Assembly (NCBI GenBank): GCA_038128225.1
Contig: JAYPJF010000001.1
Span: 94,458-158,457, forward strand
DNA length: 64,000 nt
Direction of reading: 5' to 3'
Source of the DNA: a bacterium
GTDB taxonomy: Bacteria; Patescibacteriota; Minisyncoccia; Phycocordibacterales; UBA2100
The notes beneath the pieces are model-generated. The model made no database searches, was not told the DNA's origin, and saw only the letters and a list, made by a program, of their open reading frames with translations. Positions 21,496-32,902 of this stretch are shown piece by piece. Every line of letters starts with the position of its first letter. Position 1 is the stretch's first letter. A program made the translations under genes and the position numbers.

Positions 21496-22101
21496 CTATT
21501 CAAGAATTCCGTCGAGGTTAACGTCGTACAGGATCGACTCAGCAACAAGACGATAATTGACTATCTCGTTATCAGAAAACCAGTGTTTTACCTCCATATG
21601 CGCCTCTTCAATTGAACCTGACGCATGGATCAAATTTCGGATTGCCCGATCATCGGTGTCCGCCATGAGATACGAGTCGAGCACGAAATCGCCGCGTATA
21701 GTACCAACATCAGAAGAACGGGGCTCGGTGCCACCAGTAATTTTCCGCACAATATCCACAACATGCGCTCCTTCCCAGACCATCGCTATCACCGGCCCAC
21801 TGGTAAAGTACTTTTTTAGTCTCTCAACGACACCGTTTCCAATCTCAATTGGGTCCTCGGAAGGCGGCGTCATGCCTTTTTTCTTATAGCCCTCTATTGC
21901 TTTCATGCCGACATTCTTTTTCCAATTCGGGTCAAGTAGGTAATGCTCTTCAACGTGCTTGGCAGTAGGTACGATCATTTTCATGCCTACAAGCTTAAAC
22001 CCCGTACGTTCGTACCTGCGGATAATTTCGCCAATGAGGGAACGCTGAACACCATCCGGTTTGATAACAACTAACGTGCGTTCTTTTTTCACATGTGCCA
22101 T
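21496..22101 (-). CDS. ndk: Nucleoside diphosphate kinase (long form)
   Basis: ERTLVVIKPDGVQRSLIGEIIRRYERTGFKLVGMK and NLIHASGS (active-site His). Confidence 0.8.
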   Translation of the reverse strand: MAHVKKERTLVVIKPDGVQRSLIGEIIRRYERTGFKLVGMKMIVPTAKHVEEHYLLDPNWKKNVGMKAIEGYKKKGMTPPSEDPIEIGNGVVERLKKYFTSGPVIAMVWEGAHVVDIVRKITGGTEPRSSDVGTIRGDFVLDSYLMADTDDRAIRNLIHASGSIEEAHMEVKHWFSDNEIVNYRLVAESILYDVNLDGILE

Positions 22102-22157: not shown

Positions 22158-24962
22158 CTAAATCCATCCACTGTTTGGTTTGAGTGCTTCCGGATTATAC
22201 GCCCCTGTAGAACTCTTATATCGGGCACGTATCTCTTCCTCAACCTGTTCACGTGGCCGCCCATAGCGCTCATATGATTGCTGTTTCAGTATGTCCACAC
22301 GCGAAAAATCAGTTTTCTCCGGTTTTAGTGTCTCAATATTGAATGGCTTTACCGGCCGACCACGTACCAAAAGCCGCAGGTACGCGTTGTAGTTATCGAG
22401 ATGCATAATATCTTGCGCCGCGAACTCTGGTTCAAACATAGTTGAAAGAAACTCCGCATCTTTTTCACCCACACGGAACACGCAGCGCGTACCTACGTTT
22501 CCAAATACCGCGTCTCGAATCTCATCGGTAAGTTGATCGATAAATTGGTGTGCGATACTTAGTACAAGACGGTATTTCCGTGCTTCCGAAAGAATCGTGG
22601 CAATAGACGGCGTTGTAAAATTCTGGAACTCGTCGATGTACATGTAGAAAGGTTTAATTTCGGCTTTCCCCACTAGATCCACACGCGAGAGTGCTGCGTT
22701 TAATATTTTTCCAACAAAGACAAGCCCTAAAAGCGACGAGTTTAATTCTCCCAGGCGCCCTTTTGAAAGATTGATAAGTAATATTTTGCGCTCGTCCATG
22801 ACGCTGCGGAAATCAAACGCGGAATGCTCTTGGCCAATAATGGGGCGCATAATTTCGTTTGCCAAAAAAACATCGAACTTGTTTGTCACATATTGTCCAA
22901 ACGCCTCGAGTTTTTGTTCTCCTTCCAATTTTGTAGCAATCCCCTGCCAAAATTCAACAATGAGCGGATTTTTACAGCGTGCAATTTTTAAGTTGCGAAA
23001 CGCTTCGTTGGTAAAAATGCGCGTAATATCAACCATCGTGTTTCCTGTTGCGGGGTCGTCCATGACCAAAAGCGCTGAGTTACGGAAATACTGCTCAAAA
23101 GCCGGACCAATTGATTCCGGAACCGAGCCATAGAGTTTTTTGAAAATGCCGATGAGCTCGTCGACTAAAAAAGTCTTTTGTTCTGGACGCCTCAGATCGT
23201 ATTCGAGCATATTAAGCCCCATCGGTCGTGGCAAATACCCGGGGTCAAAATATATAACATCTTGCTCGCGTTCTGGAGGAACCGCGGCAAGAATGTCTTG
23301 AATATCAGAACCGTGCGGATCGATATAACACACCCCTTCTCCGTTTCGGATATCTTGAATGATCATATTCTTCATCAGGCTCGACTTACCTGTGCCAGTC
23401 TGCCCGACTTCATAAAAATGGCGGAACCGATCTTCTTCCGCAAAATATACTTTTTGTTCTGACGCACCATGGCGATTGATCCCGAGTACTATCCCCTCTT
23501 CGGGCATGTCGGTTGGCGCAGGCGACTGTTTTGCACGCGACTGCTTCAATTCACGCGACGTGCGCACCCCCTCTGCGGTCAAGTGGTATATAGTAGTAAG
23601 TTCAGAAAAATTTAATGGGAGCGCGCGCGATACCTCCGGAACGCGCATTATGAAGTTGTTGATAACCCCTTCGCGTGTCCAACTTCCTGCTTCTTTAAAA
23701 ACAATACTGTTGCCCTGCGGGTCGCTAAACTGATTAAATGTTGACGCAAGGTTTTCTAAAATATCGCGGGCGCGCGCTTGCGTCTTCGCCGAAGCAAGAA
23801 TGCGGATATTCACCGGAACAATTCGGTTAGAGACTTTTTTACCAACACGTTCGGTGAGTTCTTGTTCAGCAGAACTCTCGGTGTTCTTCTTCTCGGGCAA
23901 AATTAATCCGGTGGTGAAGTCCTTTGCAAATTCACCAAGCATGGTTTCTGGGACTTTTCTTGCCTCCTTGAAAGACTTCCCTTTATGAAGCGCCTTAAGC
24001 ATTTTCTTGTAGTGCGCATTGTAGCGGTCCCCTTCGTTCCCTACGATGATCTGGAGCGCCGCACCTTCATCATGTTTGTGCAATTTTGCGAACGCTGAAA
24101 GCATGACGTTCATCGGGTCATGTTGGAACGTATCATACGTTTTAAGCGGCAACGCGGGATGTTCGGAGAGTTGTGCGTACGCGGCCACATGTTCACCATG
24201 CGAATTAAAAATATTATAGTCTCCGCGGCGCTCGTTCAGTTTTGCGTTTGGAAAGATTGAAAACAGGTGTCGTTCAAACAAATCCTTCTTGTTTGAGGGA
24301 ACCGCAATAAAAAACACCGCTTCTTCAGAACCTTCCGCGACAGCAATCTCCATTGAAAAGACGTTACTTTTACTCGAGGCGTTACCGCTCGCGATCGCAA
24401 GGAGCCCCGCGTACAGTTGCTCCATCGAAGCAAGAAGGTGCGCCAGGTCTCGTTGTTGTTCTTCTTTCTGTGTCGCTCCTTGCGGTTGAACTTCAAACAG
24501 CGTCATATGCAGCGCCCGCCACGTTTGTCCTTGTTCCTGTAAATAACCACCGACGGGCAACCCTTCGGCAACATAGCGCACCAACGCACGATGAAAATCA
24601 TCTTGGACATGTGGGTTACGCATGCGCGCCGAAACCGAAAGTGCATTTCTAATGCCGCGATCCTGCACCACGCGAAGCAACGCATCAATCTGTACGTCGT
24701 GCGTTTCTGGTTCTAGTTTGAGTGCCTCACGCACCACATCGTGCGTTGGCGTAATAACGGTCTCGTGCAACACTTCTGCCGGCGGCGTCTCGTCATATCT
24801 TTCGATTTCGCGCTTCGCGATTCGTTCACGCTCAAAAGAATCGTCATGCACCCCGAGCTCTTTCTCTTTTTCAGCAACACGCTTGCGCAAATAAACCAAC
24901 TCCTCTTCCGGAGTCGTAAAACGCTGCGGCGTATCGAGCGATATACGGGATCGTTCCGCCAT
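22158..24962 (-). CDS. Large P-loop ATPase of the VirB4/TraG/HerA-FtsK superfamily with an N-terminal domain of unknown function of about 450 aa
   Basis: Walker A GQTGTGKSS, Walker B YMYIDEF, and a C-terminal RKYRLVLSIAHQFIDQL motif. No transmembrane segment. Confidence 0.5.
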   Translation of the reverse strand: MAERSRISLDTPQRFTTPEEELVYLRKRVAEKEKELGVHDDSFERERIAKREIERYDETPPAEVLHETVITPTHDVVREALKLEPETHDVQIDALLRVVQDRGIRNALSVSARMRNPHVQDDFHRALVRYVAEGLPVGGYLQEQGQTWRALHMTLFEVQPQGATQKEEQQRDLAHLLASMEQLYAGLLAIASGNASSKSNVFSMEIAVAEGSEEAVFFIAVPSNKKDLFERHLFSIFPNAKLNERRGDYNIFNSHGEHVAAYAQLSEHPALPLKTYDTFQHDPMNVMLSAFAKLHKHDEGAALQIIVGNEGDRYNAHYKKMLKALHKGKSFKEARKVPETMLGEFAKDFTTGLILPEKKNTESSAEQELTERVGKKVSNRIVPVNIRILASAKTQARARDILENLASTFNQFSDPQGNSIVFKEAGSWTREGVINNFIMRVPEVSRALPLNFSELTTIYHLTAEGVRTSRELKQSRAKQSPAPTDMPEEGIVLGINRHGASEQKVYFAEEDRFRHFYEVGQTGTGKSSLMKNMIIQDIRNGEGVCYIDPHGSDIQDILAAVPPEREQDVIYFDPGYLPRPMGLNMLEYDLRRPEQKTFLVDELIGIFKKLYGSVPESIGPAFEQYFRNSALLVMDDPATGNTMVDITRIFTNEAFRNLKIARCKNPLIVEFWQGIATKLEGEQKLEAFGQYVTNKFDVFLANEIMRPIIGQEHSAFDFRSVMDERKILLINLSKGRLGELNSSLLGLVFVGKILNAALSRVDLVGKAEIKPFYMYIDEFQNFTTPSIATILSEARKYRLVLSIAHQFIDQLTDEIRDAVFGNVGTRCVFRVGEKDAEFLSTMFEPEFAAQDIMHLDNYNAYLRLLVRGRPVKPFNIETLKPEKTDFSRVDILKQQSYERYGRPREQVEEEIRARYKSSTGAYNPEALKPNSGWI

Positions 24963-24976
24963 TTCTACAGTATACC

Positions 24977-25747
24977 CTATCGAGGATGTGTAAGAATTTC
25001 AGGGCCTTGCGCAGTCACCAGTACTGTATGTTCGACATGCGCCGATTTTGAACCGTCTCGTGTTCGATACGTATACCCATCAGCATCGAGAAAAATTGCT
25101 CCTCGCCCAAGCATAAACATAGGCTCAATCGCAAGCACCATACCTTCAGTAATCTTTGGACCTGTACCGCGCTTCCCGAAATTTGGGATAAAAGGTTCTT
25201 CGTGTACACGCGCACCCACGCTATGTCCCCCAAGTTCGCGCGGGCCATTCAGTTTGTACTGTTTTCCAACAGTCTCAATTGCGTACCCAATATCTCCGAG
25301 CGTGTTACCAACACGTGCCTCAGCAATACCAGCATCGAGCGCCTCGCGCGCGCACTGAAGCAGCCGTTTTTCATCAGGAGCCGCGTTCCCGACAACGAGA
25401 CATACGGCCGCGTCTGTCACCAAACCATCATGCGTTAAACCCATATCGAGCGTGACCACGTCCCCGTCGTTTAGTATCTCTGGGTCTTCGTTGGGAATAC
25501 CATGAACAATCGCATCATTCACGGACACACAGAGAGCCGCAGGGTACGGGCGCCGTGCACCATCAGGCATATAACCAAAAAAAGACGCTTTATCGCCTTG
25601 AGATCCAATAAGTTTTTGCGCTTCTTCTTCGAGAAAGAGTGTGGAGATGCCTGGCTTAACCATCCTTTTTAGCACCGCAAGATACGAACCAAGTCGCGCA
25701 CCCCCTTCTCTGAGCGTTTCGCGCTCTTTTTCCGTCTGCGCGATCAT
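24977..25747 (-). CDS. map: Methionine aminopeptidase, type I
   Basis: HGIPN, DGDVVTLD, HSVGARVHEEP and MVLAIEPM metal-ligand blocks. Confidence 0.85.
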   Translation of the reverse strand: MIAQTEKERETLREGGARLGSYLAVLKRMVKPGISTLFLEEEAQKLIGSQGDKASFFGYMPDGARRPYPAALCVSVNDAIVHGIPNEDPEILNDGDVVTLDMGLTHDGLVTDAAVCLVVGNAAPDEKRLLQCAREALDAGIAEARVGNTLGDIGYAIETVGKQYKLNGPRELGGHSVGARVHEEPFIPNFGKRGTGPKITEGMVLAIEPMFMLGRGAIFLDADGYTYRTRDGSKSAHVEHTVLVTAQGPEILTHPR

Positions 25748-26340
25748 GTAATATGCAACACTGTACGAATCTGAGCGTGAATCTCCTCAATAGGAGGTCT
25801 TGCATCAATATAATGCATAGTGCGCCCCCGCTCTTCAAGAAGTTTTATCGCTGGCAGCGTCTCGGTTTCATACCAATCAAGTCGTCGCTGTATTTTTTGA
25901 TCATCACTATCATCACTACGGCCGCGCCCATGAAGACGCCTAACGGCTTCTTCGCGAGGCAACTGAAGCACGACGACATGATACGGGACTCTTCCAAAAA
26001 ACTGAAGCGCATCGTCAAGCACGATTGACTGCTCAACTCGGCGGGCTACGCCGTCAATGATCAAGTGTTCTCGATTCGTAAACTCCTGCAAAAAGAAGGT
26101 GGTGATGATATGTGAGGGTATGAACGCGGGGAGCAATCCCCCAGCGTTAATCACCTCTCCCACTCGTTTACTCGCGTCTCCCGAACCTGCGGCAAATCCT
26201 CGCAATCGCTCTCCCATTTCGAGTCCGAGCACAGGAGTATCGGAGTCTCTTTCCAAAAGACCTTCAAGGAGTTTCGCCTGCGTGCCTTTACCAGCGCCTT
26301 GCGGCCCGAAGAAAACTACCGTAATTGGAGCATCAATCAT
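25744..26340 (-). CDS. adk: Adenylate kinase
   Basis: P-loop FFGPQGAGKGTQ. The start is refined to MIDAPITVVFF so it does not overlap the gmk-like gene. Confidence 0.8.
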   Translation of the reverse strand: MIDAPITVVFFGPQGAGKGTQAKLLEGLLERDSDTPVLGLEMGERLRGFAAGSGDASKRVGEVINAGGLLPAFIPSHIITTFFLQEFTNREHLIIDGVARRVEQSIVLDDALQFFGRVPYHVVVLQLPREEAVRRLHGRGRSDDSDDQKIQRRLDWYETETLPAIKLLEERGRTMHYIDARPPIEEIHAQIRTVLHIT

Positions 26341-26920
26341 GCCCGTCAATATACCCCTCTTTCTTAAGAATCTCAACCACACTTTTGATGGCCTCATCAA
26401 GTTTTCCTTGCTCGTTTTTAATAACGCGATCATACCAAGGCATGTATTCTTGAATTTCTCGCGTAGCAATTTTCTTGCGCGCTTCCCATTCTTCATCACT
26501 CATGATCTGTCGTGCCCGCACTCGTTTTTCCAATTCCTCCAGTGAGTGTGGCTGAATAAAGAGCGTCAATGCATCGAATTCTTTTTTAAGATACCGCGCG
26601 CCAATAATATCGACTTGCGCAAGGATGGTTTTTCCCTGTGCAAGTAATTCGCGCAAATGAGGCAAATAAATACCGTAGTGAGCGCCCGTTTCGACAAACC
26701 GATGTTCGGGAATTTCTCCTGCATCAAGCGCGTTGAGAAACTCCTCTTCTGTAAAAAATAAGTAGTCTTTCCCCTGCTCTTCCCCGTCTCGCCGCGTTCG
26801 CGTCGTTGCGGTAACCAAGCGCACGCACTGTGAACAGTGCTGCAATACACCTTCAAGAATTGCATTTTTTCCACTTGCAACTGTTCCCGAAATAACCACA
26901 ACTCGTGGCTTAGACTGCAT
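26333..26920 (-). CDS. Guanylate kinase-like paralog 2
   Basis: TATTRTRRDGEEQGKDYLFF, the GMP-binding block. The P-loop ISGTVASGKNA has Lys but Asn in place of Ser/Thr. Confidence 0.65.
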   Translation of the reverse strand: MQSKPRVVVISGTVASGKNAILEGVLQHCSQCVRLVTATTRTRRDGEEQGKDYLFFTEEEFLNALDAGEIPEHRFVETGAHYGIYLPHLRELLAQGKTILAQVDIIGARYLKKEFDALTLFIQPHSLEELEKRVRARQIMSDEEWEARKKIATREIQEYMPWYDRVIKNEQGKLDEAIKSVVEILKKEGYIDGHD

Positions 26921-27491
26921 ACCCCTCTGTACGCAGAATACGGATAATCGCGGTCACGGTGTCGTCAAATTCTCCATCGTCGTTAAATACAATATGATCG
27001 TATTCTTTGTCAGATTCAATGATTTCCTGTGACGCTTGTAAAAGGCGCTTGATGACTTCGTCTTTCTGGATCGTTGGGTCACGCCGCACTAAGCGGTTGT
27101 ATAGAGTAATCATTGATTTCGGCTTGATGAAAATCGTTGTCGCTCTGTACGACTGCTTGAAAAAACGGGCACCGTGCACGTCAGTATTCACAATCACTGT
27201 TTTTTCCGAAGACAATTTCGCCTCGAGGTCAGGCAGGTACGTGCCGTAATGCGCGTCACGGTCTCGAACAAAAACATGTTCAGGAATTGAGCCGTCTTGT
27301 ACATGTTCAAAAAATTGCTCTTTGCTAAAGAAATAATAATCGCGTCCTTCTTGTTCTCCAGGACGCGGCGTTCGAGTAGTTGCAGAAACAGCACGTGTAA
27401 ATTGAGGGTACGCGAGAACAAGCTCGTTGGTAAACGTTGATTCTCCGGAACCCGTTGGACCGGCAAGTACCACCACCCGTTTTCTGCTCAT
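26910..27491 (-). CDS. Guanylate kinase-like paralog 1 (P-loop lysine replaced by Glu)
   Basis: SATTRTPRPGEQEGRDYYFF. The P-loop GPTGSGEST has Glu where the Walker A Lys normally sits. Confidence 0.65.
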   Translation of the reverse strand: MSRKRVVVLAGPTGSGESTFTNELVLAYPQFTRAVSATTRTPRPGEQEGRDYYFFSKEQFFEHVQDGSIPEHVFVRDRDAHYGTYLPDLEAKLSSEKTVIVNTDVHGARFFKQSYRATTIFIKPKSMITLYNRLVRRDPTIQKDEVIKRLLQASQEIIESDKEYDHIVFNDDGEFDDTVTAIIRILRTEGYAV

Positions 27492-27521: not shown

Positions 27522-28796
27522 CTAGTATTCACGAATCGATGTCTGTGCGTCGATTTTCTTAACCACATCGAGAATGACGGAGACTGCAATGAGAAGCGCG
27601 GTTCCACCAATTGTGAGTGAAGCAATGCCTGTGACGCCTTGAATAATGATGGGCAACACCGCAATGGCGCCGAGAAAGAGTGCGCCAAAAAGTGTTATGC
27701 GAGTGATGATGTTTCCAAGATATTCTGCTGTTGTGTTACCAGGACGAACGCCAGGAATGAATGCGCCATTTTTTTGTAAGTTTTTCGCGATTTGGTTCGG
27801 CTCAAATGTAATTGCAGTATAAAAATACGTGAACACCACAACGAAAAGGAAGTACAAAGGTCCGTAAATCCAGTTGTTAGTCAACCCATTGACGATCGAC
27901 TGTGCGATAGTAGAGGCAAGACCAAGATCAAGACTTGCCAAAAAACTTGCCACCATCTGAGGGAAAAGAAGGAGCGAGAGCGCAAAAATGATTGGGATCA
28001 CACCCGCCTGGTTCACGCGAAGCGGAAGGTATGTTGATATGCCGCCGAGTACCCGACTTCCTCGAACACGGCGCGCGTACGTCACCGGAATAGGACGTTC
28101 TGCTTCAGTGATAAACACGACGCCAGCAGTTACCAGAAACGCAACCGCAACAAAACCGAGATACGTAGGAATTTGTGATACGTCAAAAGCAAATAACACT
28201 TGCGAGAGCGCTGTAGGAAGACCGGCAACGATTCCTGCAAAGATGATAATAGAGACGCCGTTACCAATTCCAAATTCAGTCATGAGCTCACCAATCCACA
28301 TGACCAAGAGCGAGCCAGCAACAATAACCATCACGTTCGTGAGAAGTGTAAAGAAATCTACATCGACAAGAATACCCTGTTGGCGCAATAAGGAAAGAAA
28401 CCCGAACCCTTGGATGAACGCGAGCGGCACTGTTAGATATCGCGTGTAGAGCATAAATTTAGCACGTCCCGCTTCTCCTTCTTCCTGATACAACGTCTTC
28501 AGTTTCGGCGAAAGCACCGTCATAAGCTGCATCACGATAGAGGCGGTAATATATGGGCCCACGCCGAGCATGACAATCGAGAGATTCGACAGACCACCCC
28601 CAGAAAAGATGTTGAGAAGCCCAAGAAATTGGTTGTTAGTGAAGAAGATTGCGAGTCGCTCAGCATCAATTCCCGGAATCGGAACGGTCGCAAGCAAGCG
28701 ATACACAATGAGCGCGCCAAATACAAAGAGTACGCGACTGCGCAACGTGTCATCGCTTATGACTGTTTTGCATTTTCGAAAAAATGACTCGATCAT
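27522..28796 (-). CDS. secY: Preprotein translocase subunit SecY
   Basis: 424 aa, 10 transmembrane helices, GNGVSIIIFAGIVAGLP motif. Confidence 0.9.
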   Translation of the reverse strand: MIESFFRKCKTVISDDTLRSRVLFVFGALIVYRLLATVPIPGIDAERLAIFFTNNQFLGLLNIFSGGGLSNLSIVMLGVGPYITASIVMQLMTVLSPKLKTLYQEEGEAGRAKFMLYTRYLTVPLAFIQGFGFLSLLRQQGILVDVDFFTLLTNVMVIVAGSLLVMWIGELMTEFGIGNGVSIIIFAGIVAGLPTALSQVLFAFDVSQIPTYLGFVAVAFLVTAGVVFITEAERPIPVTYARRVRGSRVLGGISTYLPLRVNQAGVIPIIFALSLLLFPQMVASFLASLDLGLASTIAQSIVNGLTNNWIYGPLYFLFVVVFTYFYTAITFEPNQIAKNLQKNGAFIPGVRPGNTTAEYLGNIITRITLFGALFLGAIAVLPIIIQGVTGIASLTIGGTALLIAVSVILDVVKKIDAQTSIREY

Positions 28797-31110: not shown

Positions 31111-31296
31111 TTACCAAGAGCTTTTCTTTACACCAGGGATGTTACCTTCAAGCGCCTGTTCACGAAAACAAATGCGGCATAGGTCAAAATCGCGCATATA
31201 CCCACGTGGCCGACCACATTTAAAACAGCGACGAACTACCCGACTTTTAAATTTCGGTGTCCGCTTTGCTTTCGCGATCATTGATTTTTTAGCCAT
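31111..31296 (-). CDS. rpsZ: 30S ribosomal protein S14 (Zn-ribbon type Z)
   Basis: 61 aa, [20 protein letters not shown]. Confidence 0.9.
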
Positions 31297-31537: not shown

Positions 31538-32299
31538 GTGGCACTTCTCATACGCATAGGTCTTGGGATACTTATTTTTGCCTTCGCGGGAGTTGTGGTT
31601 GACCAGCTGGCAAATGATGGGAGTATCGCCGCTGCAATCCGTCAATGGCTTCTGTGGATAGGACGAGTGATTTGGCAGTGGATTTTGAGCATTATTGGCT
31701 CAATCTACCGTCCTCTTGCCGTATGGCTCCAAGGCGCAATGAAACGATTCGCCCTGAGACGGCTCTTACAGCCGTTTTGGCGAGCGCTTTGGTATGTGGC
31801 AGCCTACGTTCTCGTACGTCATTGGGGCCAACTAAAGTATGCTGAACGACGAGAGAAAGTGGAAGAGCTCAAACGACGCTTTCTTGGAAAACTCTTTGCG
31901 CTTTGGAGCTACAGGCCGGGATTACCGCGATGGACACGTGCACTCATTGCCATTGGGGCAATTGGCGCGTGCGTATGGTTATTCATCATAATCAATGAAC
32001 GCCTGGGATGGTGGGAGGGGCTTCTGTTCTCTTTCGTTGCCGCATTCGTGGTCGAGAAACTGCCCCTCATCGGCTTCGACCAATTCAGTGCAATCATCAT
32101 GGAGCGGTGGCGCCCGATACGCGCGTGGGCGGATTGGTTTGCAGGAAAATACCCGCGCACCGCATGGTGGATCAGCTGGCTCTGGGCGCGCCCATTCTTC
32201 ATCTGGTTAGGGCGCAAACTTGGCCTCAATGAGAAGTTTGAAGTGGACACCGATGGAGACGGAGTGCGTGACGCGCCCGTTAAGAATAAAGCGGCGTGA
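31538..32299 (+). CDS. Hypothetical Trp-rich membrane protein, encoded on the opposite strand inside the ribosomal protein cluster
   Basis: 253 aa with several transmembrane helices and many Trp/Arg residues. It is followed by a strong bidirectional terminator. Confidence 0.5.
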   Translation: MALLIRIGLGILIFAFAGVVVDQLANDGSIAAAIRQWLLWIGRVIWQWILSIIGSIYRPLAVWLQGAMKRFALRRLLQPFWRALWYVAAYVLVRHWGQLKYAERREKVEELKRRFLGKLFALWSYRPGLPRWTRALIAIGAIGACVWLFIIINERLGWWEGLLFSFVAAFVVEKLPLIGFDQFSAIIMERWRPIRAWADWFAGKYPRTAWWISWLWARPFFIWLGRKLGLNEKFEVDTDGDGVRDAPVKNKAA

Positions 32300-32353: not shown

Positions 32354-32902
32354 TTATTCGGCTTTTTGGAGAGGAAACCCGAGATGCCGAACAAGTGCTT
32401 CTGCCTCTTCTTTTGTTTTCGCAGTCGTCACTACCGTAATTGCAAACCCAAAAACATCACGAAGGTCTTCGTCAGCGGTCTCAGGAAAAATCGTATGCTC
32501 CTTAATACCAACCGAATAATTTCCCATATCATCAAAGGCGGTCGCCTTGAGGCCGCGGAAGTCACGCGTGCGAGGGAGCGCGATATGAATCAGCTTGTCT
32601 ATGAATGCCCACATCCGAGCGCCACGAAGGGTGATTTGATATCCGATAACATCCCCCTCCCGAGTCTTGAACGTAGCAATAGCTTTTTTTGCCGCGCGCT
32701 CTGCGGGTTTTTGCCCTGTAATCAACGCGAGACGGTCCGCGATGAGTGCACGCTTTTTTTGATCGGTAATCTTTCCAATACCGCTCGAAATGACCACTTT
32801 TACCACCTTTGGTGATTGCATCACGTTTTTATATCCAAACTGAGTTTTCAGTGTCTGGTACACGTTTTTTTGCTTTTCTACTGTGATGTTTTGATGATCC
32901 AT
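32354..32902 (-). CDS. rplE: 50S ribosomal protein L5
   Basis: Clear L5 match. Confidence 0.9.
   Translation of the reverse strand: MDHQNITVEKQKNVYQTLKTQFGYKNVMQSPKVVKVVISSGIGKITDQKKRALIADRLALITGQKPAERAAKKAIATFKTREGDVIGYQITLRGARMWAFIDKLIHIALPRTRDFRGLKATAFDDMGNYSVGIKEHTIFPETADEDLRDVFGFAITVVTTAKTKEEAEALVRHLGFPLQKAE

What the first reader, a model, noticed from the sequence alone, without database searches (positions are those of the whole stretch)
26333..27491. Two tandem guanylate-kinase paralogs, both with non-canonical Walker A loops
Both retain the GMP-binding block (ATTRTxRxGExxGxDYxFF). One has GPTGSGEST, with Glu replacing the catalytic Lys. The other has SGTVASGKNA, with Asn replacing the Ser/Thr that coordinates Mg. 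If this is the only gmk locus, essential GMP kinase activity would depend on atypical P-loops, a heterodimer or a repurposed pair. The pair sits between adk and secY, where infA, rpmJ and related genes usually lie.
Basis: partly seen in the sequence, partly recalled or inferred. Interest (0 to 1): 0.55.

Follow-up and report, generated by a model that had tools for sequence, protein, structure and literature searches.

The report
Guanylate kinase pair, one lacking lysine
Two adjacent guanylate kinase genes are real, and one belongs to a large, well-conserved family in tiny candidate-phyla-radiation (CPR) bacteria that has swapped the supposedly indispensable ATP-binding lysine for glutamate, which suggests a housekeeping kinase that works by an unusual active-site chemistry.

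Summary
Two overlapping minus-strand ORFs, g1 (26910-27491, P-loop GPTGSGEST) and g2 (26333-26920, SGTVASGKNA), are 39% identical guanylate kinase (GK) paralogs lying between secY and adk. Neither substitution is a sequencing error.

- **g1** is a typical member of "type A". All 156 type-A sequences examined carry Glu in place of the Walker A Lys. Thr21, Arg78 and Asn102 co-vary with it. Every GMP-, adenine- and LID-contacting residue is retained.
- **g2** is "type B". It keeps the Lys, and Asn occupies a position that varies naturally among guanylate kinases (G/S/T/D/N), so it is probably a conventional enzyme. Its P-loop is nonetheless atypical for its own family.
- **Type C** is a third family found in related genomes (GPSGAGEDS). 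It carries an invariant Lys at the Walker-B-like position, which looks like a Lys/Asp charge swap.

Across related Parcubacteria, the slot between secY and adk holds A, B, A+B, A+C or C+B. An obligate A-B heterodimer is therefore unlikely.

My best reading is that the two genes encode isozymes, and that g1 remains active with its positive charge supplied by other means. Catalysis is inferred, not shown. I could not check for a canonical gmk elsewhere in the genome.

The parts
26910..27491 (-). g1: type-A guanylate kinase paralog (193 aa) with Glu in place of the Walker A Lys
   Evidence: ORF. Pfam PF00625 at 104 bits. AlphaFold2 pLDDT 93.7, and the top 50 Foldseek PDB matches listed are all guanylate kinases, most with TM 0.8-0.86. 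All 120 listed homologues carry Glu at this position.
27435..27461 (-). g1 P-loop GPTGSGEST (residues 11-19); Glu17 codon GAA at 27441-27443
   Evidence: Read directly from the sequence. The position aligns with human K17 and yeast K15.
27429..27431 (-). g1 Thr21, which co-varies with Glu17
   Evidence: Thr in 154 of 156 Glu-type sequences and in 6 of 254 Lys-type sequences.
27258..27260 (-). g1 Arg78, at the tip of a hairpin in the GMP-binding domain lengthened by two residues
   Evidence: Arg in 149 of 156 Glu-type and 3 of 254 Lys-type sequences. It lies in the turn between strands 72-75 and 80-84 of the model.
27186..27188 (-). g1 Asn102, at the Walker-B-like position (human D101)
   Evidence: Asn in 155 of 156 Glu-type and 5 of 254 Lys-type sequences. 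It sits at the C-terminal end of strand 98-101.
26333..26920 (-). g2: type-B guanylate kinase paralog (195 aa), Lys retained, Asn at the next position
   Evidence: ORF. Pfam PF00625 at 98 bits. AlphaFold2 pLDDT 92.9. The family P-loop is GPSGSGK followed by N (95%) or D (5%).
26861..26887 (-). g2 P-loop GTVASGKNA (residues 12-20); departs from its own family consensus GPSGSGKNA at three positions
   Evidence: The family's nearly invariant P13 and G15 are T and A in g2, and the commonest residue S14 (80%) is V.
26910..26920 (-). 11-nt overlap between the g1 stop and the g2 start (ATGCAGTCTAA), consistent with translational coupling
   Evidence: Read from the sequence.
25744..26340 (-). adk (198 aa, GPQGAGKGT); overlaps the g2 stop by 8 nt
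   Evidence: Pfam ADK. Gene call in the identical locus L001.
24977..25747 (-). map (methionine aminopeptidase); overlaps adk by 4 nt
   Evidence: Pfam Peptidase_M24.
27522..28796 (-). secY, immediately upstream of g1 with a 30-nt gap
   Evidence: PF00344.

Best explanation
The locus encodes two co-transcribed, translationally coupled paralogs. They come from a radiation of guanylate kinases (GKs) specific to Parcubacteria (CPR), apparently the Kaiserbacteria lineage.

**g2 (type B).** It keeps the P-loop Lys and every substrate-contacting residue. It most likely acts as an ordinary ATP:GMP phosphotransferase, with Asn19 taking the Mg-ligand role of the usual Ser.

**g1 (type A).** It belongs to a large, strongly conserved family in which the P-loop Lys is always Glu. 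The change always comes with Thr21, Arg78 and Asn102. Retained residues are the GMP site (S36, R40, R43, Y52, E71, Y82, D104), the adenine site (R133, N170) and the transition-state arginines of the LID, the mobile lid domain over the ATP site (R137, R149).

My reading is that g1 still binds GMP and ATP and still transfers phosphate. The positive charge normally given by Lys would come from one of two sources:
- a cation held by the oxygen ligands Glu17, Asn102 and Thr21, next to the known K+ site of guanylate kinase;
- Arg78 reaching in from the GMP-binding domain.

The two genes would then be isozymes with different cation or regulatory requirements. This parallels the Glu117 (K+-dependent) and Lys117 (K+-independent) pyruvate kinase isozymes.

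**Shown:** gene structure, family membership, conservation, co-variation and distribution.
**Inferred:** ligand binding, catalysis, and how the charge is replaced.
For: **Real genes and a confident fold.**

**Glu is fixed in type A.** It is present in 120 of 120 listed g1 homologues and in 156 of 156 type-A sequences in the large alignment. T21 is present in 154 of 156, R78 in 149 and N102 in 155. Among 254 Lys-type sequences these counts are 6, 3 and 5.

**Catalytic and binding residues are kept.** The GMP-site residues and LID arginines are about 100% conserved in A and B. They map onto the human residues whose mutation abolishes activity or binding: R41, R44, E72, R133, R137, R148 and N171 (PMC12297293).

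**g1 is under strong constraint.** It matches all 14 nearly invariant type-A positions. Between related genomes it is more conserved than g2, adk and map: 57-69% identity, against 48-54% for g2, 39-69% for adk and 45-66% for map.

**Type A occupies housekeeping positions alone.**
- secY-A-adk-map (L017, L019, L020, L044, L048).
- S1-A-tilS-ftsH (L128; L021, L046 and L047 show A-tilS).
- rluD-A-rplS.

**A related family shows how the Lys can be relocated.** Type C has Glu-Asp in the P-loop (120 of 120) and an invariant Lys exactly where canonical enzymes have the Walker-B-like Asp. This indicates that the clade relocates the charge rather than losing the chemistry.

**The residue after Lys varies naturally.** G, S, T, D and N all occur there.

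**Precedent for Glu/Lys isozymes.** Pyruvate kinases with Glu117 mostly carry Thr113/Thr120 and are K+-dependent; those with Lys117 mostly carry Leu113 and Leu/Ile/Val120 and are K+-independent (abstracts of PMC8835810 and PMC4374775). Vibrio cholerae has one isozyme of each kind (abstract of PMC5501398). Human GMPK binds K+ at S37 and D101, next to the P-loop.
Against: - In human GMPK the K17A mutant has no detectable activity (PMC12297293). Replacing Lys with Glu would normally be expected to kill a P-loop kinase.
- No enzyme data exist for any Glu-type GK.
- I could not obtain model coordinates, so the proximity of Arg78 or of a cation site to the transferred phosphate is unverified.
- Arg78 also occurs in a few Lys-type relatives (P0247, P0279), so it is not strictly tied to Glu.
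- Some CPR bacteria lack Gmk altogether (bioRxiv 10.64898/2026.06.21.733656 and PMC9166423). GMP kinase activity may therefore be dispensable, and 'type A alone' need not mean 'type A is active'.
- A Lys-bearing GK elsewhere in A-only genomes was not excluded.
Confidence: 0.45

Rival explanations
1. g1 (type A) is a catalytically dead pseudo-kinase. It binds GMP and/or adenine nucleotides and acts as a sensor, a buffer or a regulator of another protein. g2, or another enzyme, provides GMP kinase activity.
For: Human K17A has no detectable activity. An acidic residue at this position should repel the beta and gamma phosphates. GK-fold pseudoenzymes are known (MAGUK GK domains appear among the sequence matches). 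GMP kinase may be dispensable in CPR bacteria. In the window and in several relatives, type A is accompanied by a second GK.
Against: Unlike MAGUK domains (from general knowledge), type A keeps the adenine contacts R133 and N170 and all the transition-state arginines at about 100%. That is hard to explain for a mere GMP binder. It sits alone in conserved housekeeping slots. It has no fixed partner: A+B, A+C, A+cmk-like and A alone all occur. It evolves more slowly than adk.
Confidence: 0.3
2. g1 and g2 act on different substrates, or g1 carries out different chemistry on guanine nucleotides. Examples would be dGMP versus GMP, a different phosphate donor, or hydrolysis with Glu17 as a general base.
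For: Two or three diverged GK types are kept side by side in many genomes. The residue that contacts guanine O6 differs: T/S/A in A, T/I/V in B (Ile84 in g2) and Val in C. The guanine-contacting Asp is Glu in C and Gln in about 5% of B. In L119 the second slot holds a cytidylate-kinase-like gene, which suggests the slot collects NMP kinases.
Against: The main determinants for guanine and its phosphate (S/T36, R40, R43, Y52, E71, Y82) are the same in all three types. Human T83A and D103A mutants have only a minimal effect on activity, so the positions that differ are weak specificity determinants. No positive evidence exists for another substrate.
Confidence: 0.15
3. g1 and g2 form an obligate heteromer in which g2 supplies catalysis and g1 supplies regulation or GMP binding.
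For: The stop and start codons overlap by 11 nt and the order A-then-B is conserved, which would give coupled, stoichiometric expression. Some bacterial guanylate kinases are oligomers (E. coli entries).
Against: The same slot holds A alone, B alone, A+C or C+B in related genomes. In L052 type A sits beside a frameshifted type B. Each monomer has its own complete set of binding sites.
Confidence: 0.07
4. The substitutions are sequencing or assembly errors, or the genes are decaying pseudogenes.
For: None for g1. For g2 there is only a mildly atypical P-loop and the long branches of tandem type-B copies.
Against: Identical proteins were recovered from independent runs. The family-wide conservation is 100%. 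Both reading frames are intact and both fold models are confident.
Confidence: 0.01

Closest known systems
Canonical guanylate kinase (Gmk/GUK1, EC 2.7.4.8, Pfam PF00625)
   Same: Same fold (TM 0.8-0.86 to solved GMKs). Same GMP-binding block, LID arginines and adenine contacts. Housekeeping genomic context.
   Different: g1 has Glu instead of the Walker A Lys, whose Ala mutant is inactive in the human enzyme, together with co-varying Thr21, Arg78 and Asn102. g2 has Asn instead of the Mg-ligand Ser and Gln instead of the Walker-B-like Asp. Both score below the NCBIfam equivalog cut-off.
Pyruvate kinase Glu117 (K+-dependent) versus Lys117 (K+-independent) isozymes
   Same: A Glu/Lys alternation at a position in the active site (K+ site), with Thr accompanying Glu and Leu/Ile/Val accompanying Lys. 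Both forms can coexist in one genome (abstracts of PMC8835810, PMC4374775 and PMC5501398). Here Glu17 goes with Thr21 and Lys goes with Ile/Val/Leu21.
   Different: Unrelated fold and reaction. In pyruvate kinase the cation dependence is measured; here it is only inferred.
MAGUK guanylate-kinase-like domains (PSD-95, CASK, MPP)
   Same: GK fold with a P-loop that can no longer work in the canonical way. They are detectable homologues of g1.
   Different: From general knowledge, MAGUK domains have lost the ATP-binding and LID machinery and bind phospho-peptides within large eukaryotic scaffolds. g1 is a stand-alone bacterial protein that keeps all ATP- and transition-state-contacting residues except the Lys.
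WNK ('with no lysine') protein kinases
   Same: A catalytic Lys is missing from its canonical motif and, at least in the sister type-C GK family, an invariant Lys appears at a neighbouring structural position (E17/K100).
   Different: Different superfamily. Relocation in type C is inferred from alignment only, and g1 (type A) has no such relocated Lys.

Membership tests
Guanylate kinase (PF00625 / EC 2.7.4.8) | Full-length GK domain and fold | tested here: met
   Pfam 104 bits (g1) and 98 bits (g2) against a cut-off of 25.2, covering positions 2-181 of 182. AlphaFold2 pLDDT 93.7 and 92.9. For g1, the top 50 Foldseek PDB hits listed are all guanylate kinases.
Guanylate kinase (PF00625 / EC 2.7.4.8) | NCBIfam equivalog TIGR03263 score above its curated cut-off | tested here: not met
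   140.1 bits (g1) and 125.0 bits (g2) against a cut-off of 160.45.
Guanylate kinase (PF00625 / EC 2.7.4.8) | GMP-binding residues (human S37, R41, R44, Y53, E72, Y81) | tested here: met
   g1 has S36, R40, R43, Y52, E71 and Y82. g2 has T37, R41, R44, Y53, E72 and Y82. Residue roles are taken from PMC12297293.
Guanylate kinase (PF00625 / EC 2.7.4.8) | Walker A lysine (GxxGxGK) | tested here: not met
   g1 has Glu17, codon GAA at 27441-27443. g2 meets this feature with Lys18.
Guanylate kinase (PF00625 / EC 2.7.4.8) | Ser/Thr after the Lys as the direct Mg2+ ligand | tested here: inconclusive
   g1 has Ser18 and g2 has Asn19. Human S18A is inactive, but natural guanylate kinases carry G, D or N at this position.
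Guanylate kinase (PF00625 / EC 2.7.4.8) | LID and adenine contacts (human R133, R137, R148, N171) | tested here: met
   g1 has R133, R137, R149 and N170. g2 has R133, R137, R148 and N169. These are 96-100% conserved in both families.
Guanylate kinase (PF00625 / EC 2.7.4.8) | ATP:GMP phosphotransferase activity | not testable with these tools
   Requires an enzyme assay or genetic complementation.
GK-fold pseudoenzyme (MAGUK type) | Loss of the ATP-binding and LID residues as well as the P-loop Lys | tested here: not met
   Only the Lys is lost in g1. R133, R137, R149 and N170 are kept.
Cation-for-lysine isozyme pair (pyruvate kinase E117/K117 type); resemblance in mechanism only | Glu/Lys alternation with co-varying oxygen-ligand residues | tested here: met
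   Glu17 goes with Thr21 and Asn102. Lys goes with Ile/Val/Leu21 and Q/D/E/V/H at position 102.
Cation-for-lysine isozyme pair (pyruvate kinase E117/K117 type); resemblance in mechanism only | Activity of the Glu form depends on a monovalent cation | not testable with these tools
   Requires kinetics with and without K+, NH4+ and Na+.

The most novel reading that the evidence does not exclude
Parcubacteria carry natural, catalytically active P-loop NMP kinases that dispense with the Walker A lysine. Type A (g1) would replace it with a Glu-anchored cation or with Arg78. [quoted passage not shown] The window's A+B tandem would then be a pair of isozymes with different cation dependence.
Probability: 0.4. 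Interest if true: 0.8.

Novelty: new variant of a known kind. Interest (0 to 1): 0.62.

Why it matters
The Walker A lysine is regarded as close to indispensable in P-loop kinases. Two large, conserved families of housekeeping guanylate kinase homologues carry Glu at that position (types A and C). Both keep the rest of the catalytic apparatus, and both often sit alone in the gene slot examined. They offer a natural test of how phosphoryl transfer can be rewired, whether by relocating the charge or by substituting a cation.

There is also a practical consequence for reconstructing nucleotide salvage in CPR bacteria. Automated pipelines label these proteins inconsistently, as 'guanylate kinase' or 'hypothetical protein'. 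Their scores fall below the NCBIfam equivalog cut-off.

The hypothesis can be tested directly with simple enzymology on small soluble proteins.

Tried and rejected
- **Loss of the Walker-B-like Asp as a sign of inactivation.** I first took the loss of yeast D99 / human D101 in both paralogs as evidence against activity. I rejected this because the position is naturally D, E, V or I among Lys-type guanylate kinases. What does carry information is its strict coupling to the P-loop residue: Asn with Glu in type A, Lys with Glu in type C.
- **Lys123/Lys125 of g1 (FIKPKS) as a relocated lysine.** Rejected. These residues are only about 66-69% conserved and are absent from the type-A proteins that sit alone in the slot (FIVPES).
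- **'B and C are equivalent Lys-bearing partners of A.'** Rejected after finding a C+B tandem (L126).
- **Reciprocal loss of A or B as proof of redundancy.** Weakened. GK genes also occur at other loci, so 'alone in the slot' does not mean 'alone in the genome'.
- **Whole-genome check for a canonical gmk.** Not possible.
- **Linking genes on the same contig by matching contig lengths.** This worked for A+C pairs but is unreliable in general.
- **Promoter and terminator scan.** Nothing above chance.
- **Literature searches.** No description of Glu-type bacterial guanylate kinases was found.
- **PhnN (ribose 1,5-bisphosphokinase) membership.** Rejected at 31 bits against a cut-off of 156.
Full report
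**Observation**

The minus strand carries two ORFs: g1 at 26910-27491 (193 aa) and g2 at 26333-26920 (195 aa). They overlap by 11 nt. g2 in turn overlaps adk by 8 nt, and adk overlaps map by 4 nt. The gene order is rplO-secY-g1-g2-adk-map, followed by a 934-aa DUF8128/TraG-like ATPase and ndk.

- Both proteins match Pfam Guanylate_kin end to end, at 104 and 98 bits.
- They are 39% identical to each other.
- Both fall below the NCBIfam guanylate kinase equivalog cut-off: 140 and 125 bits against 160.45.
- tblastn with E. coli Gmk, yeast Guk1 and both paralogs finds no further copy in the 64-kb window.
- The identical g1 protein is encoded on six contigs; the four shown come from four different sequencing runs and have the same gene order. 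Sequencing error is therefore excluded.

**Each substitution is a family trait**

All 120 listed homologues of g1, down to 46% identity, carry G-x-G-E-[ST]-[TS]. I call this family type A.

The 120 listed homologues of g2 all keep Lys. It is followed by Asn in 95% and Asp in 5%. I call this family type B.

I then aligned 412 GK sequences.

| g1 position | 156 Glu-type sequences | 254 Lys-type sequences |
|---|---|---|
| Thr21 | 154 | 6 |
| Arg78 | 149 | 3 |
| Asn102 | 155 | 5 |

Arg78 lies in a two-residue insertion at a hairpin tip of the GMP-binding domain. Asn102 is the Walker-B-like position, equivalent to human D101.

Both families keep the following residues at about 95-100%:
- the GMP-contacting residues (human S37, R41, R44, Y53, E72, Y81);
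- the adenine contacts (R133, N171);
- the LID and transition-state arginines (R137, R148).

In human GMPK the mutants K17A, S18A and R148A have no detectable activity. K17 hydrogen-bonds the gamma-phosphate and AlF4-. Mg2+ is bound directly by S18 and through water by D101. A K+ ion binds S37 and D101. T83A and D103A matter little (PMC12297293).

**How unusual each paralog is**

g2's Asn sits at a position that is naturally S, T, G, D or N in guanylate kinases. The solved Listeria enzyme 3TAU has GKG there. On that basis g2 is probably a conventional enzyme. It does, however, depart from its own family's P-loop consensus at three positions (GTVASGKNA against GPSGSGKNA). Type-B copies that sit in tandems also lie on long branches of a neighbour-joining tree (no bootstrap).

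g1 is a textbook type-A member. It matches all 14 nearly invariant positions of its family. Between related genomes it is more conserved than g2, adk and map. Both proteins give confident AlphaFold2 models (pLDDT 93.7 and 92.9). The g1 model superposes on solved guanylate kinases with TM 0.8-0.86.

**Distribution**

The nearest relatives of the window are candidate Kaiserbacteria and other Parcubacteria (CPR). The slot between secY and adk is variable.

| Content of the secY-adk slot | Loci |
|---|---|
| B only | 13 species representatives (L005-L016, L018), including the complete chromosome CP066682.1 (L011) |
| A only | L017, L019, L020, L044, L048 |
| A+B | the window, L121, L123, L039/L040, L041 |
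| A + frameshifted B | L052, frameshift at a TCGA repeat |
| A + cytidylate-kinase-like gene | L119 |
| A+C | L042, L124 (complete chromosome CP070993.1), L127 |
| C+B | L126 |

Type C is a third family with at least 1,111 database hits. Its P-loop is GPSGAGEDS in 118 of the 120 listed, and Glu-Asp-Ser is present in all 120. It has an invariant Trp-Lys exactly where canonical enzymes have the Walker-B-like Asp. In other words, the Lys/Asp pair appears to be swapped.

Outside this slot:
- Type A sits alone in rluD-A-rplS (five loci).
- Type A sits in S1-A-tilS-ftsH (L128); L021, L046 and L047 show A followed by tilS.
- Type C occupies the same S1-x-tilS-ftsH position in a Moranbacteria genome (L125).

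**Interpretation**

The variable pairings argue against an obligate g1-g2 heteromer. Three observations argue that g1 still binds both substrates and probably still transfers phosphate:
- every catalytic and binding residue except the Lys is strictly conserved;
- g1 evolves slowly;
- type A occurs alone in housekeeping positions.

The positive charge would come either from a cation held by the co-varying oxygen ligands Glu17, Asn102 and Thr21, beside the known K+ site, or from Arg78. The type-C charge swap shows that this clade rearranges the charge rather than abandoning the chemistry.

A close precedent in logic is pyruvate kinase. Glu117 enzymes, mostly with Thr113/Thr120, need K+. Lys117 enzymes, mostly with Leu/Ile/Val at those positions, do not. 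Both kinds can coexist as isozymes in one genome (PMC8835810, PMC4374775, PMC5501398; abstracts listed).

All of this is inference. No Glu-type guanylate kinase has been assayed, and I could not obtain model coordinates. Human K17A is dead. Some CPR bacteria lack Gmk entirely, so a non-catalytic role for g1 remains a serious rival, at roughly 30%.

**Limits**

I could not search the rest of the source genome, or any complete genome, for a further gmk. The tree is neighbour-joining without bootstrap. The co-variation counts include related sequences and are not independent events.

**Novelty**

Literature searches found no description of bacterial guanylate kinases with a Glu P-loop. I rate this as a new variant of a known kind.

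Noticed in passing
L042 2585-3154; L124 4001-4570; L125 4001-4564; L126 4001-4579; L127 4578-5171: A third GK family (type C) that is absent from the window. Its P-loop is GPSGAGEDS, with Glu in 120 of 120 listed sequences, and it has an invariant Lys at the Walker-B-like Asp position (WK[IL]EYQG). There are at least 1,111 database hits, with named hits annotated as Candidatus Kaiserbacteria, Pacebacteria/Paceibacterota, Moranbacteria/Moraniibacteriota and Parcubacteria group. It looks like a Lys/Asp charge swap.
   Followed up: partly
window 22158-24962 (-): A 934-aa ATPase (DUF8128 plus a TraG-D_C-like region) sits between map and ndk. It occupies the same position in related Kaiserbacteria loci (L119, L121, L123, L124, L127). 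That is unusual next to the ribosomal protein/secY/adk/map cluster.
   Followed up: no
window 31538-32299 (+): A 253-aa hydrophobic, Trp-rich ORF with no Pfam match lies on the opposite strand inside the ribosomal protein operon, between rplE (32354-32902) and rpsN (31111-31296). It is called as a gene in the independent contigs L001 and L002 and is partly present in L003.
   Followed up: partly
L119 5592-6167: In the closest relative examined (type A 69% identical to g1), the place of g2 is taken by a 191-aa cytidylate-kinase-like (Pfam Cytidylate_kin2) / adenylate-kinase-like protein (GGPPGAGKGT). This suggests the slot collects different NMP kinases.
   Followed up: no
L052 4587-5157: The type-B gene next to a type-A gene is interrupted by a frameshift inside a TCGA tetranucleotide repeat. 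This is either an assembly slip or a genuine intermediate in the loss of B.
   Followed up: partly
window 21496-22101 (-), 25744-26340 (-), 26333-27491 (-): ndk, adk and both GK genes lie within 6 kb on one strand. This clusters nucleotide phosphorylation genes in an organism from a group reported to rely on nucleotide salvage.
   Followed up: no
P0249 (representative protein): One type-A relative has Ala instead of Glu at the Walker A Lys position (GPVGSGATT) while keeping Arg78 and Asn102. The acidic side chain may therefore not be strictly required.
   Followed up: no
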